In this document: piece after piece, positions 2,970 through 45,396 of the stretch
How positions within the stretch are numbered: the first letter of the stretch is position 1
Layout of the letters: each line of letters opens with the position of its first letter
Virus record (IMG/VR): IMGVR_UViG_2935423994_000003
Source: a virus
DNA length: 64,000 bases
Direction: 5' to 3' (one strand)
Translations under genes and position numbers: made by a program
Notes under the pieces: generated by a model
The model's database searches: none
Seen by the model: only the letters and a program-made list of their open reading frames with translations
Told to the model about the DNA's origin: nothing

Positions 2970-3254
2970 ATGAACGCCGTCCGCCCAATTGCCGTAAAAC
3001 TTGATCAGGACACCCGCGACCGCCTCAAGCGGCTGGCGGAGGCCAGAGACCGCTCCACTCACTGGATGCTCCGCGAGGCCGTGGCGCAATTCGTCGATCG
3101 CGAAGAAAAGCGCGAATCGTTTCGCCAAGCCGGGCTTCAGGCATGGGAAGAATTTCAGGCCACCGGCAAGCACGTCACGCATGACGAAGCCGATGCCTGG
3201 CTTGTCAGGCTGGAAGCGGGCGAAGATGCGGACGCTCCTGAATGCCACGACTGA
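2970..3254 (+). CDS. CopG/RHH-family antitoxin
   Basis: RPIAVKLDQDTRDRLKRLA..RDRSTHWMLREAV ribbon-helix-helix; overlaps the toxin start. Confidence 0.85.
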   Translation: MNAVRPIAVKLDQDTRDRLKRLAEARDRSTHWMLREAVAQFVDREEKRESFRQAGLQAWEEFQATGKHVTHDEADAWLVRLEAGEDADAPECHD

Positions 3255-3532
3255 TCTGGTCTCCCGCAGCTCTGCGGGACGTTGAGCGGCTCTACAGATT
3301 CCTTGCCGATAAAAACCCCGATGCAGCGCGCCGCGCGGCCAAATCCATTCGCGAGGGTATGAACATCCTGCGCGACCAGCCGGGGGTCGGTCGCCCCGTC
3401 GAGGCGATGGCCCCGGAATTCCGTGAGTGGTTCATCGCGTTCGGTGACAGCGGGTATGTGTCGCTCTATCGGTTTGACGGCGAAACAGCGGTGGTCCTGG
3501 CCGTTCGTCATCAGCGTGAAGCTGGGTATTGA
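3242..3532 (+). CDS. RelE/ParE-family toxin
   Basis: MPRLIWSPAALRDVERL...GRPV...YRFDGETAVVLAVRHQRE, ParE-like pattern. Confidence 0.85.
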   Translation: MPRLIWSPAALRDVERLYRFLADKNPDAARRAAKSIREGMNILRDQPGVGRPVEAMAPEFREWFIAFGDSGYVSLYRFDGETAVVLAVRHQREAGY

Positions 3533-3546
3533 GGGTGGGCGACCGG

Positions 3547-4176
3547 CTACAGCCTTCCGCCCACCCAGTTCGCTAAGATCAAACCCGGCACCGCGTCATG
3601 CGCCCGCTCCGCATCCCGCGCGAGGTCGAGCCGCTTCGGCAGCTTGACCTGCGGCACCAGCAGGAAGATCGGCGCAGTGACCCTTCCGCGCCCGGTCTTC
3701 GAGCGCGACACGACCGCCTGACCCTTCGTGTTCAGCCGTCCCTCCGCCACCAGCAGGCTCGGGCCCGTGCGGCGATAGACGAAGCGCAGGCGAAGACCGC
3801 GTCGCCGTTCCCATTCGCCGGGCGTGATCCGACCACCCCGCGCGGATTTCCCGGCGGCCTCGGTCGGGATCGCCAGCCAGAACCCGTTGCGCGACCGGAT
3901 CAGCGGGCCGGTATCATGCGCATTGATGATCTTGGGCGCTTTTGACCAGACCAGGGCTGCGGCGTTCAGGCTGGCTTTGCCTTTGGGATATTGCTCGGAC
4001 CGGATCGTGCGCGCGAGCCGGGTGCCCAGCCCCGCGCCGGTGATCTGCCCGCGCCAGGCGGTCTTGAGACTGGTCCCGGCCTCGCGCGTGGCGGCGGTGA
4101 CAGCCTTCTCGCCAGCCCTGATTTCGGCCGCCATCATTGCAGCGAGGTCGGGCGTTACGTCGAGTTTGAGCTTCAT
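3547..4176 (-). CDS. Conserved neck/tail protein (DUF6441-like)
   Basis: Lies between head-tail joining and terminator genes; homolog at 44456-45085. Confidence 0.65.
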   Translation of the reverse strand: MKLKLDVTPDLAAMMAAEIRAGEKAVTAATREAGTSLKTAWRGQITGAGLGTRLARTIRSEQYPKGKASLNAAALVWSKAPKIINAHDTGPLIRSRNGFWLAIPTEAAGKSARGGRITPGEWERRRGLRLRFVYRRTGPSLLVAEGRLNTKGQAVVSRSKTGRGRVTAPIFLLVPQVKLPKRLDLARDAERAHDAVPGLILANWVGGRL

Positions 4177-42571: not shown

Positions 42572-42994
42572 TCAGGCCAGAGGGCCGGTGGTGGAATAGT
42601 GCAAGATGACGGTGATCACCGCCGCTTTCAGCGCCGCCGCGCCCTCGATGGGCAGATCGACCGACGCCGGCGCTTCGGGTTCGACCCAATCGCAGAGGCC
42701 GCCGAGGGTGCGGTCGGCCTCCAACGCCGAGCCTATACTGGCGATCAGGGTGTCGAAGGCGCTGGCCCGACCGGTGCCCGCCTGGACGACGACCTCCAAC
42801 TCGGCGTGGTGCTGATAATGGTAGCGCAGGGGCGACAGCGTCACCTCCGGCTCACCCGGCTGGCCGTCCCGCAGGATGATCAGACCGGCTGCTGGGATCC
42901 GTTCGGGCAGCACGTCATCGCGCAGAACAAGGGCTGCAAGCGGCTGCAGCCGCGCATGCAGCGCGGCGAGGACGGTTTCGCGGCTGGTGGGCAT
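42572..42994 (-). CDS. Putative tail terminator/completion protein
   Basis: Homolog of 2461-2880. Confidence 0.6.
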   Translation of the reverse strand: MPTSRETVLAALHARLQPLAALVLRDDVLPERIPAAGLIILRDGQPGEPEVTLSPLRYHYQHHAELEVVVQAGTGRASAFDTLIASIGSALEADRTLGGLCDWVEPEAPASVDLPIEGAAALKAAVITVILHYSTTGPLA

Positions 42995-43121
42995 CCTATT
43001 CGTTCCTGTGCTTGCAACTCTGGAAAACCTCAATAGCGATGCCCACAAAGTCTCCTTCGGGATTCGTTCGCGTTTTGCGAAGTCTGTGCTATTTTTGGCA
43101 AAAAGGTGATTTGGAGCAGTT

Positions 43122-43619
43122 ATGGCAAAGGGCGCAGCGTGGGTCCGGTCCGCAGGTAAAGATCAGGTTAGCACCGGAAATTGGACAACTGGCAAGAAGA
43201 TGCCAAAGACCGCGTTTCCCCTTCGCAGCAACCACTCCTATCGTTTGGCGGGAACTTGGACTTGGCGTCTGATTTCGTTTGCGGTGAGCGGTGAGCAATA
43301 CCGCGTTTTGCTTGCCCACAAGGCGGAGAAGCAGGAGTTCATGGCAATGCTTGGTCACTTGGTGGACCGTGACATGACCGTACTATGTCGGATCGAGCAC
43401 CATGGATCGCATCCAGGTTGGCATGTTCACTACCAGCCGTATGAGACGAAACAAAGCGGCGTCGTCATCGGTGCTGATGCCCGGAAGCGGCCTTGCGGAG
43501 GAGATAGCCGGTTCGGCACCGATGTGATATCGGGCTTCGATGACTGGGCGATTTCTGTCGCTCACAGCCTTTTCAACCTGCCGCATGCACGCGGCGATAG
43601 CGACGAGCCCTTACTGTGA
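43122..43619 (+). CDS. Uncharacterised protein with His cluster (CRIEHHGSHPGWHVH)
   Basis: 165 aa; GGAG RBS; GTGA overlap with the next gene. Confidence 0.7.
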   Translation: MAKGAAWVRSAGKDQVSTGNWTTGKKMPKTAFPLRSNHSYRLAGTWTWRLISFAVSGEQYRVLLAHKAEKQEFMAMLGHLVDRDMTVLCRIEHHGSHPGWHVHYQPYETKQSGVVIGADARKRPCGGDSRFGTDVISGFDDWAISVAHSLFNLPHARGDSDEPLL

Positions 43620-44401
43620 AGCAGGAACTCTGCAAAGCCTTTTGTGACAGTGTCAGCGTGACGGAGCTTCCTTGTGGCTTCGGCATCAGCACGACACTGT
43701 TTGAAATCGAAGGCGATCCAGCGGGTCTGTATGCGATCGGCCCCGACAGCACCGGCCACTGGAAACTGGAAGATGCCGGGCGGTTGCTGCCGTCACTGAT
43801 CGCATCCGGCTACGATCTTGCGTCAGATCAAAGGAGGAAGGCGCTCGCGTCGATCCTCGAAACTGCTGATGCTGCATTCGATGAAGATGGACTGGAAATT
43901 TCGACAGGTCCAATCTCGAAATCCGACATTCCTGCGCACGCGATCCGTCTCATTGTGGCCCTCGTGAGGGTTTCTGATCTGGTACAGATGACGGCAGATC
44001 GCGTTCGCAGCACGTTCAAGGAAGACGTGCGGACAGCGCTTTCATCGTCATTGCCTTCAGACGTCGAAATACTGGAGAACGCTCCAGCAGATGAGCAAAG
44101 CGCAGATTTGCGCGCTGATCTGGTCCTGCGGCAAGCTGGCCGCGCCCCGGTGGCTCTGTATCTTGCGCAGAATGACCTATCGCTAGTTGAGGCTATGCTT
44201 CTTCGGTCCGAAACTCAGGGCGCCGGTGAAACCCGGCCGTTGGTTGCGGCGCTGCTGGAGCGTGAAAATGCTGTTTCCAAGCATACACGGACCCGAGCCA
44301 TGAATAGGCTGGACTCAGTCGGCGTTTATGAAGGTGACGAAAGGCAGGCCGTCGCCAAAGTCGTCCAGTTTGTTTCGAGCGCCCCTAGGGTTGCAGCCTA
44401 A
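43616..44401 (+). CDS. DUF1828/DUF1829-like protein
   Basis: ISTTLF..GD..LY..WKLED.G N-terminal pattern; STFKEDV..ADL.ADLVL C-terminal nuclease-like pattern; family recalled, not searched. Confidence 0.55.
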   Translation: MKQELCKAFCDSVSVTELPCGFGISTTLFEIEGDPAGLYAIGPDSTGHWKLEDAGRLLPSLIASGYDLASDQRRKALASILETADAAFDEDGLEISTGPISKSDIPAHAIRLIVALVRVSDLVQMTADRVRSTFKEDVRTALSSSLPSDVEILENAPADEQSADLRADLVLRQAGRAPVALYLAQNDLSLVEAMLLRSETQGAGETRPLVAALLERENAVSKHTRTRAMNRLDSVGVYEGDERQAVAKVVQFVSSAPRVAA

Positions 44402-44455
44402 GGTGTTGGAATATTTACCTGATACAGTTCGCCCCTCTTGAGTCCATTGTTCAGG

Positions 44456-45085
44456 CTAGGTCTTGCCCTCAACCCACTTCGCCACGATCAGCCCCGGCAC
44501 CCCGTCCACAGCGCGCTCCGCATCCCGCGCCAGATCCAGTCGCTTGCGCAGCTTGACCTGCGGCACCAGCAGGAAGATCGGCACGGTGGTCAACCCGCGC
44601 CCCGTCTTCGAGCGCGACGCCACCGCGCGACCCTTGGTGTTCAGCCGCCCTTCCGCCACCAGCAAGCTCGGCCCGCGACGACGAAAGACAAAGCGCAGCC
44701 GCAACCCGGTGCGGCGCTCCCATTCACCGGGTGTGATGCGGCCGCCTTTGCTGCTCTTGCCTGCAGCCGGAGTGGGGATCGCCAGCCAGAACCCGTCCTT
44801 GGACCGGATCAGTGGCCCGGTGTCATGCGCGCCGATGATGACCGGGGCCTTGGACCAGACCAGCGCCGCCGCGTTCAGGCTCTCGCCTGCCTTCGGGAAG
44901 GTCTGGCTCCGGATCGAGTTCGCCAGCCGCCTCCCCAGCCCCGCGCCGGTGATCTGGCCGCGCCAAGCGGTTTTCAGCCCGGTTCCGGCCTCGCGCATGG
45001 CGGCGGTGACGGCCTTCTCACCCGCCTTTACCTCTGCGGCCATGGCGGCGACGAGGTCCGGCGTGATGTCGAGTTTCAGTTTCAT
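44456..45085 (-). CDS. Conserved neck/tail protein (DUF6441-like)
   Basis: Homolog of 3547-4176. Confidence 0.65.
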   Translation of the reverse strand: MKLKLDITPDLVAAMAAEVKAGEKAVTAAMREAGTGLKTAWRGQITGAGLGRRLANSIRSQTFPKAGESLNAAALVWSKAPVIIGAHDTGPLIRSKDGFWLAIPTPAAGKSSKGGRITPGEWERRTGLRLRFVFRRRGPSLLVAEGRLNTKGRAVASRSKTGRGLTTVPIFLLVPQVKLRKRLDLARDAERAVDGVPGLIVAKWVEGKT

Positions 45086-45396
45086 GATGGCCGCAGGTCC
45101 AGCGACCAGATCAGGCGTTCGCGGTCGCGGATTGGCTCGCCCTGGATAGTGAAGCTGTCGGTCCCGATCACGATCAGATCGCCGGGGCGGGGATCGGGCA
45201 GGTCGGACACGCGGGCGTCCACCATCATCGTGTCGCTGACAAAGCGCCCAGCGCCGAACTCGGTGATGCGATCGGGGGCGCGGCGGATGACGCGGATCGG
45301 GCGTTCCTCCGAGGTGGTGGCCGAGATCCACAGCGCCGCCACCGCCATGGACGGGTTGGCATAGATCCGGTCCATGGCGGTGGCGAAGACGGTCAT
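45082..45396 (-). CDS. Head-tail joining protein
   Basis: Homolog of 4173-4484. Confidence 0.7.
   Translation of the reverse strand: MTVFATAMDRIYANPSMAVAALWISATTSEERPIRVIRRAPDRITEFGAGRFVSDTMMVDARVSDLPDPRPGDLIVIGTDSFTIQGEPIRDRERLIWSLDLRPS

What the first reader, a model, noticed from the sequence alone, without database searches (positions are those of the whole stretch)
43000..44455. Candidate new two-gene defence/TA-like system occupying the slot that holds RHH-ParE in the sister prophage
Seen: between the same two tail genes, prophage 2 carries a translationally coupled antisense pair with its own leader and lower GC. The first is a 165-aa protein with a His cluster (LCRIEHHGSHPGWHVHY). 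The second is a 261-aa DUF1828/DUF1829-like protein whose C-terminal half has a restriction-endonuclease-like acidic pattern (TFKEDV..ADLRADLVL). Inference: positional equivalence to a TA module, and prophage 1's use of every such slot for TA, suggest an uncharacterised anti-phage or addiction system, for example a metal-dependent nuclease with a sensor or antitoxin partner. I cannot assign it to a named system.
Basis: partly seen in the sequence, partly recalled or inferred. Interest (0 to 1): 0.75.

Follow-up and report, generated by a model that had tools for sequence, protein, structure and literature searches.

The report
Divergent PDC-M24-like prophage gene pair
Two overlapping foreign genes inside a prophage's tail region are a real, conserved pair: a divergent branch of a catalogued but never tested candidate anti-phage system, in which a small histidine-rich protein accompanies a nuclease-like protein.

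Summary
Genes A (43122-43619, 165 aa) and B (43616-44401, 261 aa) overlap by 4 bases. They lie antisense in a low-GC insert, in the slot where the sister prophage carries RHH-ParE. Both are under strong purifying selection.

B is a full-length relative of DUF1828/DUF1829 proteins. It has an N-terminal domain with a type-III-secretion-chaperone/YbjN-like fold and a C-terminal domain with a restriction-endonuclease-like fold. It matches phrog_5059 and, in part, PADLOC PDC-M24B.

A belongs to an unannotated family of about 280 clusters with an invariant E-x-H-G-x-H-x-G-x-H-x-H hairpin. It is probably a remote relative of DUF6978 (PDC-M24A), but no Pfam or PADLOC model detects it.

Every one of about 18 independent A loci has B directly downstream. 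In temperate phages the pair repeatedly sits right behind the CI repressor, the position of lambda rexAB.

Best reading: a lysogen-expressed, two-protein anti-phage (abortive infection or exclusion) module, with B as nuclease effector and A as its fast-evolving metal-binding partner. This is untested.

It is a new variant of an untested candidate system, PDC-M24 (Payne et al. 2024). This scan has met PDC-M24 relatives in at least 56 other genomes. Interest is moderate.

The parts
43049..43121 (+). Leader of the operon. It holds the palindrome TTCGC-GTTTT-GCGAA (43067-43081) and the Shine-Dalgarno GGAG (43113-43116), 5 nt before the ATG.
   Evidence: Sequence read. The leader is conserved in Rhodobacter sp. 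SW2 and IMG/VR relatives. No sigma-70 consensus promoter was found.
43122..43619 (+). Gene A: a 165-aa protein of an unannotated family. It is beta-rich and probably a remote DUF6978-like partner protein.
   Evidence: No hit in Pfam, PADLOC, PHROGs or NCBIfam. There are 28 close clusters and 278 representatives at E<=1e-3. The model has pLDDT 72.8 and no solved-fold match. hhalign against DUF6978-like proteins gives P 7.8e-4. The Atlas nearest clusters carry DUF6978.
43395..43430 (+). Codons for the His-rich hairpin E92-H-H94-G-S-H97-P-G-W-H101-V-H103, a presumed metal site.
   Evidence: H94, H101 and H103 (with K13) are invariant in 69 diverse family members, and E92 and G99 are at least 90% conserved. 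In the model H94 ends one strand and H101/H103 lie on the next.
43616..44401 (+). Gene B: a 261-aa two-domain protein (DUF1828 plus a divergent DUF1829). The GTG start overlaps the stop of A.
   Evidence: phrog_5059 1.4e-55 over the full length. PADLOC PDC-M24B 9.1e-14 over residues 24-144. hhalign against canonical DUF1828/1829 proteins gives probability 99.15%, E 4e-19, over 247 columns. The model has pLDDT 89.
43709..43972 (+). [quoted passage not shown]
   Evidence: Pfam DUF1828 1.4e-8. VIA match to BacA 8q8o, Z 9.1 over model residues 5-129. BacA is described as T3SS-chaperone/YbjN-like (PMC10948618). Conserved residues are G33, D34, D53, R73 and E94.
43988..44398 (+). B C-terminal domain (residues 125-261), with a restriction-endonuclease-like (PD-(D/E)xK-type) fold and conserved D137, D168 and E215.
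   Evidence: VIA matches: BsaWI Z 10.3, VC1899 10.2, Can2 10.1, Bax1 9.7, NucC 8.6. The Foldseek list is dominated by REase-fold nucleases, but all hits are above E 0.001.
42572..42991 (-). Left flank: prophage-2 tail-module gene (139 aa), 71% identical to 2461-2880 of prophage 1.
44456..45085 (-). Right flank: prophage-2 DUF6441 gene (209 aa), 82% identical to 3547-4176 of prophage 1.
2970..3532 (+). The equivalent slot in the sister prophage: RHH antitoxin (2970-3254) plus ParE toxin (3242-3532).
   Evidence: Pfam RHH_1 6.6e-9 and ParE_toxin 5.9e-18.

Best explanation
The insert is a horizontally acquired prophage cargo operon ('moron'). It encodes a two-protein anti-phage module (abortive infection or superinfection exclusion) of the DUF6978-like + DUF1828/DUF1829 (PDC-M24) superfamily.

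Shown:
- The two genes are real, translationally coupled, under purifying selection, and always found together.
- B has a chaperone-like N-domain and a restriction-endonuclease-fold C-domain that keeps three acidic residues.
- A has an invariant E/H/H/H hairpin.
- In temperate phages the pair recurs directly behind the CI repressor.

Inferred:
- A and B form a complex. B's chaperone-like DUF1828 domain may grip the poorly ordered 106-133 segment of A.
- B is the conserved metal-dependent nuclease effector.
- A is the faster-evolving, metal-binding partner that senses infection or gates B.
- The module is expressed in the lysogen and cuts nucleic acid when another phage infects.
For: - Coupling and selection: 4-base overlap, conserved start and Shine-Dalgarno; dN/dS 0.04-0.12.
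- Strict A-to-B adjacency in about 18 non-redundant loci, down to 22-35% identity.
- Repressor-A-B order in five independent temperate phages or prophages: CP051249, L006, L030, Rhizobium phage RHph_N28_2 and Pseudomonas phage 5399 with a true DUF6978 partner.
- Other contexts: an integrase island with a DNA methylase, and low-GC3 two-gene islets.
- The canonical branch lies next to type I HsdS and is listed as defence candidate PDC-M24 by embedding in BREX/DISARM/RM loci.
- B fold: REase-like, Z about 10. D137, D168 and E215 are kept over 13-30% identity.
- B is the constant part (hhalign 4e-19). The small partner diverges beyond HMM recognition and evolves about twice as fast, as sensors or specificity parts often do.
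- A is disrupted while the B ORF stays intact in two genomes. This argues against B being constitutively lethal without A.
Against: - There is no experimental evidence for this pair or for PDC-M24; its authors call the PDC systems 'untested'.
- B lacks the canonical (D/E)xK lysine on strand 3. Its Foldseek matches are all above E 0.001, and receiver domains score Z about 8 in the same list. Nuclease activity is therefore not shown.
- A has no recognisable fold, so its role is a guess.
- The homology of A to DUF6978 rests on a weak hhalign hit (P 7.8e-4; it beat 119 of 120 column shuffles) and on language-model neighbours. HMM-to-sequence scores are no better than for shuffled sequences.
- No promoter was found, and expression in the lysogen is inferred only.
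- In this window the pair is in the tail module, not behind a repressor.
Confidence: 0.5

Rival explanations
1. It is mainly a toxin-antitoxin (addiction) module that stabilises the prophage. In the more interesting version, A is the toxin: a TumE-like small metal-dependent hydrolase, encoded first as in tumE-tumA. B is then the two-domain antitoxin. Its chaperone-like domain sequesters A, and its nuclease-fold domain binds the palindromic operator in the leader.
For: - The pair occupies the slot of RHH-ParE in the sister prophage, and it occurs as isolated two-gene islets.
- TumE (DUF6516) is a validated toxin described as two helices on a seven-stranded antiparallel sheet with no PDB match (PMC10584680). 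That resembles the A model.
- By eye, TumE's VRYDNExGKGDHRH resembles the A and DUF6978 hairpin.
- A DUF1829-containing protein is the proposed DNA-binding antitoxin of the validated HipA-like system DS-6 (PMC13092281).
- The leader holds a conserved palindrome.
- B lacks the catalytic lysine.
Against: - hhalign of TumE against A (P 0.066) and against DUF6978-like proteins (P 0.32) is not significant, and no TumE HMM hit was found.
- B is more conserved than A and keeps D137, D168 and E215 over very long distances, which is unusual for a mere antitoxin.
- B is frameshifted while A is intact in one viral contig (L022). That would be lethal if A were an active toxin.
- Neither protein has an HTH or RHH domain.
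Confidence: 0.27
2. The pair serves the phage's own life cycle, for example DNA processing, recombination or counter-defence during lytic growth, and not host protection.
For: B's family is a PHROG of unknown function found in phages. The pair lies within a late (tail) gene block here. Nuclease-fold proteins are common in phage replication and recombination.
Against: - It is antisense to the late operon, has foreign GC, and is absent from the sister prophage.
- In other phages it is co-oriented with the lysogeny repressor, not with lytic genes.
- It also occurs outside phages, as chromosomal islets and beside RM genes.
Confidence: 0.1
3. The two ORFs are a decaying or non-functional remnant.
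For: Some relatives carry frameshifts or stops in A or B.
Against: Both ORFs are intact here. dN/dS is 0.04-0.12. Invariant motifs are kept over hundreds of clusters.
Confidence: 0.03

Closest known systems
PADLOC phage defence candidate PDC-M24 (PDC-M24A = Pfam DUF6978; PDC-M24B = DUF1828+DUF1829); Payne et al. 2024, bioRxiv 10.1101/2024.01.29.577857
   Same: The architecture is the same: a 146-175 aa protein with a three-histidine motif, followed by a roughly 255-aa DUF1828/DUF1829 protein that overlaps it by 4 bases. B is a full-length homologue. A is probably a remote homologue. Both occur on mobile DNA.
   Different: No PDC-M24A or DUF6978 model detects A, in any of 69 family members. The PDC-M24B model covers only B's N-terminal half, and Pfam DUF1829 does not score. 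The His hairpin is compact (HGSHPGWHVH), without the 8-17 residue insert of DUF6978. PADLOC would not call this locus. PDC-M24 itself is untested.
Lambda rexA-rexB (memory: two-gene exclusion module co-transcribed with cI)
   Same: In five temperate phages this pair or its DUF6978 sister sits directly downstream of the CI/S24 repressor, in the same orientation. That implies expression in the lysogen.
   Different: There is no sequence or fold similarity, no membrane protein, and in this window the pair is in the tail module instead.
CARF-nuclease effectors Can2/Card1/Cdn1 and NucC (signal-activated PD-(D/E)xK nucleases)
   Same: B's C-domain aligns with their nuclease domains (Z 8.6-10.2). The overall layout, an N-terminal regulatory domain plus a C-terminal REase-fold domain, is alike.
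   Different: B's N-domain is chaperone/YbjN-like, not CARF. No cyclase or signal-making enzyme is present, the catalytic lysine is missing, and sequence identity is 9-14%.
TumE-TumA toxin-antitoxin superfamily (TumE = DUF6516/PF20126; Durairaj et al. 2023, PMC10584680)
   Same: A small protein is encoded first and overlaps its partner's gene. The described fold (helices on an antiparallel sheet, no PDB match) and an R-Y-D-N...H-x-H hairpin resemble A by eye.
   Different: Profile comparison is not significant. TumA partners are HTH proteins, not DUF1828/1829. TumE proteins are shorter, at about 95-125 aa.
DS-6/HipAD (DefensePredictor; PMC13092281)
   Same: It contains a DUF1829 domain in the non-kinase partner of a validated two-gene defence system.
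   Different: The partner there is a HipA-like kinase, and the DUF1829 protein also carries DUF3037. There is no DUF1828 and no small His-motif protein.

Membership tests
PADLOC PDC-M24 | Small protein matched by the PDC-M24A model (PDLC04538 = DUF6978) | tested here: not met
   P0001 has no PADLOC hit at E<=1. The model finds nothing in the window's genome. None of 69 family members hits it.
PADLOC PDC-M24 | Second protein matched by the PDC-M24B model (PDLC04539) | tested here: met
   E 9.1e-14, 49.6 bits, but only residues 24-144 against model positions 31-147 of 255.
PADLOC PDC-M24 | The two genes adjacent, on the same strand, small gene first | tested here: met
   4-base overlap here and in all loci examined. 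The canonical pair in L008 is arranged the same way.
PADLOC PDC-M24 | Anti-phage activity | not testable with these tools
   The source paper lists the 145 PDC systems as untested.
Pfam DUF1828 (PF08861) | HMM score above the gathering cut-off (22 bits) | tested here: met
   35.4 bits, E 1.4e-8, residues 32-119.
Pfam DUF1829 (PF08862) | HMM score above the gathering cut-off | tested here: not met
   No hit for the whole protein or for residues 125-261 at E<=0.1.
Pfam DUF1829 (PF08862) | Homology of the C-terminal domain to DUF1829-bearing proteins by profile-profile comparison | tested here: met
   hhalign of A3 against A9 gives probability 99.15%, E 4e-19, over columns 3-255. L008 B in A9 carries DUF1829 at 7.3e-32.
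Pfam DUF6978 (PF22398) | HMM match of the small protein | tested here: not met
   No hit for P0001 or for any of 69 relatives at E<=10.
Pfam DUF6978 (PF22398) | Remote homology: the same order of invariant K...R...H...HxH, and the same genomic partner | tested here: inconclusive
   hhalign probability 24.8%, P 7.8e-4, over 87 columns, above 119 of 120 column shuffles. Atlas neighbours carry DUF6978 at scores 0.90-0.91. HMM-to-sequence scores equal those of shuffled controls.
PD-(D/E)xK nuclease superfamily | [quoted passage not shown] | tested here: met
   Model secondary-structure order. BsaWI Z 10.3 (rmsd 3.1, 131 aligned), VC1899 10.2, Can2 10.1. Caveat: receiver domains score about 8 in the same list.
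PD-(D/E)xK nuclease superfamily | Catalytic D on strand 2 and (D/E)-x-K on strand 3 | tested here: inconclusive
   D168 (strand 2) and D137 (helix 1) are conserved. Strand 3 (VALYLAQ) has no acidic residue or lysine. E215 after strand 4 is conserved instead. Variant active sites are known (from memory: BglII has Q in place of K). Activity is untested.
PHROG phrog_5059 | Full-length HMM match | tested here: met
   E 1.4e-55, residues 2-254 against model positions 8-258 of 259; function unknown.
TumE toxin (PF20126) | HMM or profile-profile match of A | tested here: inconclusive
   No Pfam hit and no match in the window's genome. hhalign P 0.066 for A and 0.32 for DUF6978-like proteins. There is only a by-eye motif likeness, and no fold comparison was possible.
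Type II toxin-antitoxin system | One product toxic, the partner neutralising it by binding, and autoregulation | not testable with these tools
   Only indirect evidence is available: A is broken with B intact in two genomes, and B is broken with A intact in one contig.
HUH or His-Me-finger nucleases (for A) | Characteristic fold plus a catalytic Tyr (HUH) or a beta-beta-alpha-metal finger | tested here: inconclusive
   There are only sub-threshold local hits: REP_ORF2-G2P in 3 of the 69 family members, best E 0.016, and LHH in one member, E 0.047; one further relative outside that set (L041) hits REP_ORF2-G2P at E 0.093. No such fold appears among the top structural matches. No Tyr is invariant.

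The most novel reading that the evidence does not exclude
The small partners (this family, DUF6978 and several unnamed ones) form one large, fast-evolving superfamily of three-histidine metalloproteins. Together with the chaperone-fold/nuclease-fold DUF1828/1829 protein, they make a widespread and mechanistically new prophage immunity system that temperate phages place in the repressor operon, as a functional analogue of rexAB. The His-hairpin protein would be a new kind of infection sensor or enzyme.
Probability: 0.3. Interest if true: 0.65.

Novelty: new variant of a known kind. Interest (0 to 1): 0.42.

Why it matters
If the pair protects lysogens, two things follow. First, current defence annotation (PADLOC, Pfam) misses a whole branch of the PDC-M24 superfamily, because the small partner has diverged beyond model recognition. 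Second, the recurrent repressor-A-B arrangement in cultured temperate phages (Rhizobium phage RHph_N28_2, Pseudomonas phage 5399) offers tractable systems for testing a candidate that has never been assayed. The three-histidine hairpin protein has no solved or recognisable fold, so its chemistry would be new. The practical value is a concrete two-gene construct with clear point mutants. The conceptual surprise is limited, because the candidate system is already catalogued and this scan has met it many times.

Tried and rejected
- Pfam, NCBIfam, PHROGs and PADLOC gave nothing for A, and nothing meaningful for 69 relatives.
- PDB sequence-profile searches found nothing for A or DUF6978, and only spurious beta-propeller hits for B.
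- Fold searches with the A model found no convincing match. Foldseek PDB had none at E<=0.001. The best VIA-wide Z was 5.8, to DUF3836. The only Atlas row above TM 0.5 is an unannotated family of about the same length (159 aa), perhaps A's own, plus a weak DUF7718 row.
- hhalign of A against a low-diversity DUF6978 alignment failed (probability 1.9%). It improved only with a diverse alignment.
- HMM-to-sequence tests between the two families were no better than for shuffled sequences.
A second Atlas look that excluded DUF6978 gave nothing.
- The cupin motif G-x5-H-x-H, HUH and HNH/LHH readings of the His hairpin were considered. Nothing in the fold searches or residue conservation supported any of them.
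- The reading of B's C-domain as a receiver domain was rejected on strand order: three consecutive strands, not beta-alpha repeats.
- The promoter and terminator scan found nothing useful.
- The search for related loci with the 69-sequence alignment failed for lack of a conserved stretch.
- Literature searches for DUF1828, DUF6978 and PDC-M24 found no functional study.
Full report
**Observation**

The window holds two + strand ORFs, 43122-43619 (A, 165 aa) and 43616-44401 (B, 261 aa, GTG start). They share the four bases GTGA.
- A has a GGAG 5 nt before its ATG, and its N-terminus is conserved in homologues, so the long start is right.
- GC drops to 0.53-0.58 over the insert, against 0.65-0.70 around it.
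- The pair lies antisense between two minus-strand prophage genes: a 139-aa tail-module protein and a DUF6441 protein. Downstream of these are the tail tube, head-tail attachment and major capsid genes.
- The flanking genes are 71% and 82% identical to those of prophage 1. There the interval 2970-3532 encodes RHH plus ParE.
- The pair occurs once in the genome.
- Against two close relatives, dN/dS is 0.08-0.12 for A and 0.04-0.07 for B.

The 73-nt leader, with a perfect palindrome at 43067-43081, is conserved in relatives that carry the pair in the same slot.

**Protein B**

Sequence matches:
- Pfam finds DUF1828 (1.4e-8).
- PHROGs finds phrog_5059 over the full length (1.4e-55, unknown function).
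- PADLOC finds PDC-M24B (9.1e-14), but only over the N-terminal half.
- Pfam DUF1829 does not score. Even so, a profile of 23 close homologues aligns end to end with canonical DUF1828/DUF1829 proteins (hhalign probability 99.15%, E 4e-19).

The AlphaFold model is confident (pLDDT 89).
[quoted passage not shown] They match BacA (8q8o, Z 9.1) and, by Foldseek, ExsC. BacA's authors describe it as T3SS-chaperone/YbjN-like.
[quoted passage not shown] They match BsaWI, VC1899, Can2, Bax1, Cdn1, NucS and NucC at Z 8.6-10.3.

Across 17 very divergent superfamily members only D53 is invariant. G33, D34, R73, E94, D137 and D168 are at least 90% conserved, and E215 is mostly acidic. The nuclease-fold domain therefore keeps a metal-site-like acidic set. 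It lacks the (D/E)xK lysine on strand 3, so activity is plausible but not shown.

**Protein A**

No library recognises A.
- It has 28 close clusters. A profile search of 1.8 billion representatives finds 278 at E<=1e-3, nearly all stand-alone proteins of about 160 aa.
- In 69 diverse members K13, H94, H101 and H103 are invariant. W21, W48, L63, L77, E92, G99 and G113 are at least 90% conserved.
- The model (pLDDT 72.8; residues 1-105 are good, 106-133 poor) is a short helix, an antiparallel sheet and a C-terminal helix. H94 ends one strand and H101/H103 lie on the next. That geometry suits a metal site.
- No solved or predicted named fold matches.

**Linkage and context**

Every locus with an A-family gene has a B-family gene immediately downstream on the same strand, usually overlapping by 4 bases. 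This holds for about 18 non-redundant loci, down to 22% identity in A.

The contexts are mobile:
- The same tail slot in close relatives, namely Rhodobacter sp. SW2 and IMG/VR contigs.
- Directly behind a CI/S24 repressor in CP051249, L006, L030 and the cultured Rhizobium phage RHph_N28_2.
- After a short HTH gene in a Paracoccus prophage, and next to a P4-type integrase and a C5 methylase.
- As low-GC3 two-gene islets between chromosomal genes.

The family is rare: 4 of 400 sampled genomes of the class.

**Relation to the known candidate**

- PADLOC's PDC-M24A model is Pfam DUF6978.
- In L008 a 148-aa DUF6978 gene overlaps a DUF1828+DUF1829 gene by 4 bases, right after a type I hsdS.
- DUF1828 genes occur in 13 of 401 sampled genomes of the phylum. 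Almost all are preceded by an overlapping gene for a 150-175 aa protein with a strand-R-x-(D/E/N)...H...H-x-H motif. That protein is DUF6978, weak DUF6978, unrecognised, or of the A family.
- Pseudomonas phage 5399 carries a true DUF6978 + DUF1828 pair behind cI.

Evidence on whether A is related to DUF6978:
- A profile of A against a diverse DUF6978-like alignment gives hhalign probability 24.8%, P 7.8e-4, over 87 columns. It aligns the invariant Lys, the strand before the hairpin, and the HxH.
- That score exceeded 119 of 120 column-shuffled controls; the one exception was an obvious artefact.
- The protein-language-model search puts A next to clusters that carry DUF6978 (scores 0.90-0.91, 201-214 of 256 features).
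- HMM-to-sequence scores are at noise level.

I read A as a probable remote DUF6978 relative (about 65%), and in any case its functional counterpart.

PDC-M24 comes from Payne et al. 2024. They list 145 PDC systems found by 'guilt-by-embedding' in BREX, DISARM and type I RM loci and call them untested. I found no functional paper on DUF1828 or DUF6978. DUF1829 is mentioned once, in the partner of a HipA-like kinase in the validated DS-6/HipAD system.

**Mechanism**

Shown: coupling, selection, strict co-occurrence, mobility, the two folds of B, the conserved acidic and histidine sets, and the repressor-linked position in temperate phages.

Inferred:
- The pair is expressed in lysogens and protects them.
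- A and B form a complex.
- B is the effector and A the sensor or gate.

I prefer B as effector for three reasons:
- B is the constant, slower-evolving part of the superfamily, while the small partner diversifies beyond recognition.
- B keeps its acidic residues over very long distances.
- In two genomes A is broken while the B ORF is intact. That speaks against A being an antitoxin needed to restrain a constitutively toxic B.

The main rival reverses the roles. A would be a TumE-like toxin encoded first, and B a two-domain antitoxin. By eye, TumE's VRYDNExGKGDHRH hairpin and its described fold resemble A. Profile comparison is not significant, however, and a viral contig has B frameshifted with A intact. 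The matter is open and needs the toxicity test.

**Novelty and score**

The belief that the pair matches no listed system does not hold. It is a divergent branch of an already catalogued, untested candidate.

This scan has reported PDC-M24-type pairs in at least 56 other genomes, including a repressor-operon case.

New points here:
- This branch escapes both the Pfam and the PADLOC model for the small protein.
- There are five independent repressor-linked occurrences, two of them in cultured phages.
- B's N-domain is assigned to the chaperone/YbjN fold.
- B is the conserved component and A the fast-evolving one.

I rate it a new variant of a known kind, of moderate interest.

Noticed in passing
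window 43067-43081: There is a perfect palindrome, TTCGC-GTTTT-GCGAA, in the leader of gene A. It is kept with one or two changes in Rhodobacter sp. SW2 and IMG/VR relatives. It may be an operator for autoregulation.
   Followed up: partly
L028 1501-1980 and L024 1501-1983: In two genomes the A gene is disrupted while the downstream B ORF is intact. G758 has a frameshift. G604 has an in-frame TAA and HxH changed to HxQ. In the viral contigs L022 and L023, B is frameshifted.
   Followed up: partly
L013 2308-6186: A P4-type integrase (Arm-DNA-bind_3 plus Phage_integrase) directly precedes an A-B pair, and a convergent C5 DNA methylase follows. This is a small integrative island that combines the pair with a methylase.
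   Followed up: no
L032 14-2193: A DUF1828/1829-type gene stands alone, with no small partner. It lies 234 bases after the C-terminus of a giant DUF6079 protein (1.3e-106).
   Followed up: no
L047-L055 (TumE loci): TumE proteins share by eye a strand-RYDN-loop-DHxH hairpin and a C-terminal LxxDF helix with DUF6978-like proteins and with A. hhalign does not support homology (P 0.07-0.3). A structural superposition would decide.
   Followed up: partly
window 44456-45331: The mechanical ORF list gives a 291-aa frame here. Comparison with prophage 1 and the DUF6441 match place the real start at 45085 (209 aa).
   Followed up: yes
search control: Pfam DUF1828 also matches in the E. coli control genome. 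The gene and its neighbour were not identified. A laboratory-strain copy would be a handy test object.
   Followed up: no
P0074 (representative search hit, 208 aa): One A-family member carries an N-terminal NUMOD4 motif (1.3e-8), a DNA-binding module of homing endonucleases. It is either a fusion or a mis-called start.
   Followed up: no
script: One of 200 column-shuffled versions of the A alignment gave an hhalign score of 140.8 against the DUF6978-like alignment. All the others scored 22 or less. It is an unexplained artefact of the control.
   Followed up: no
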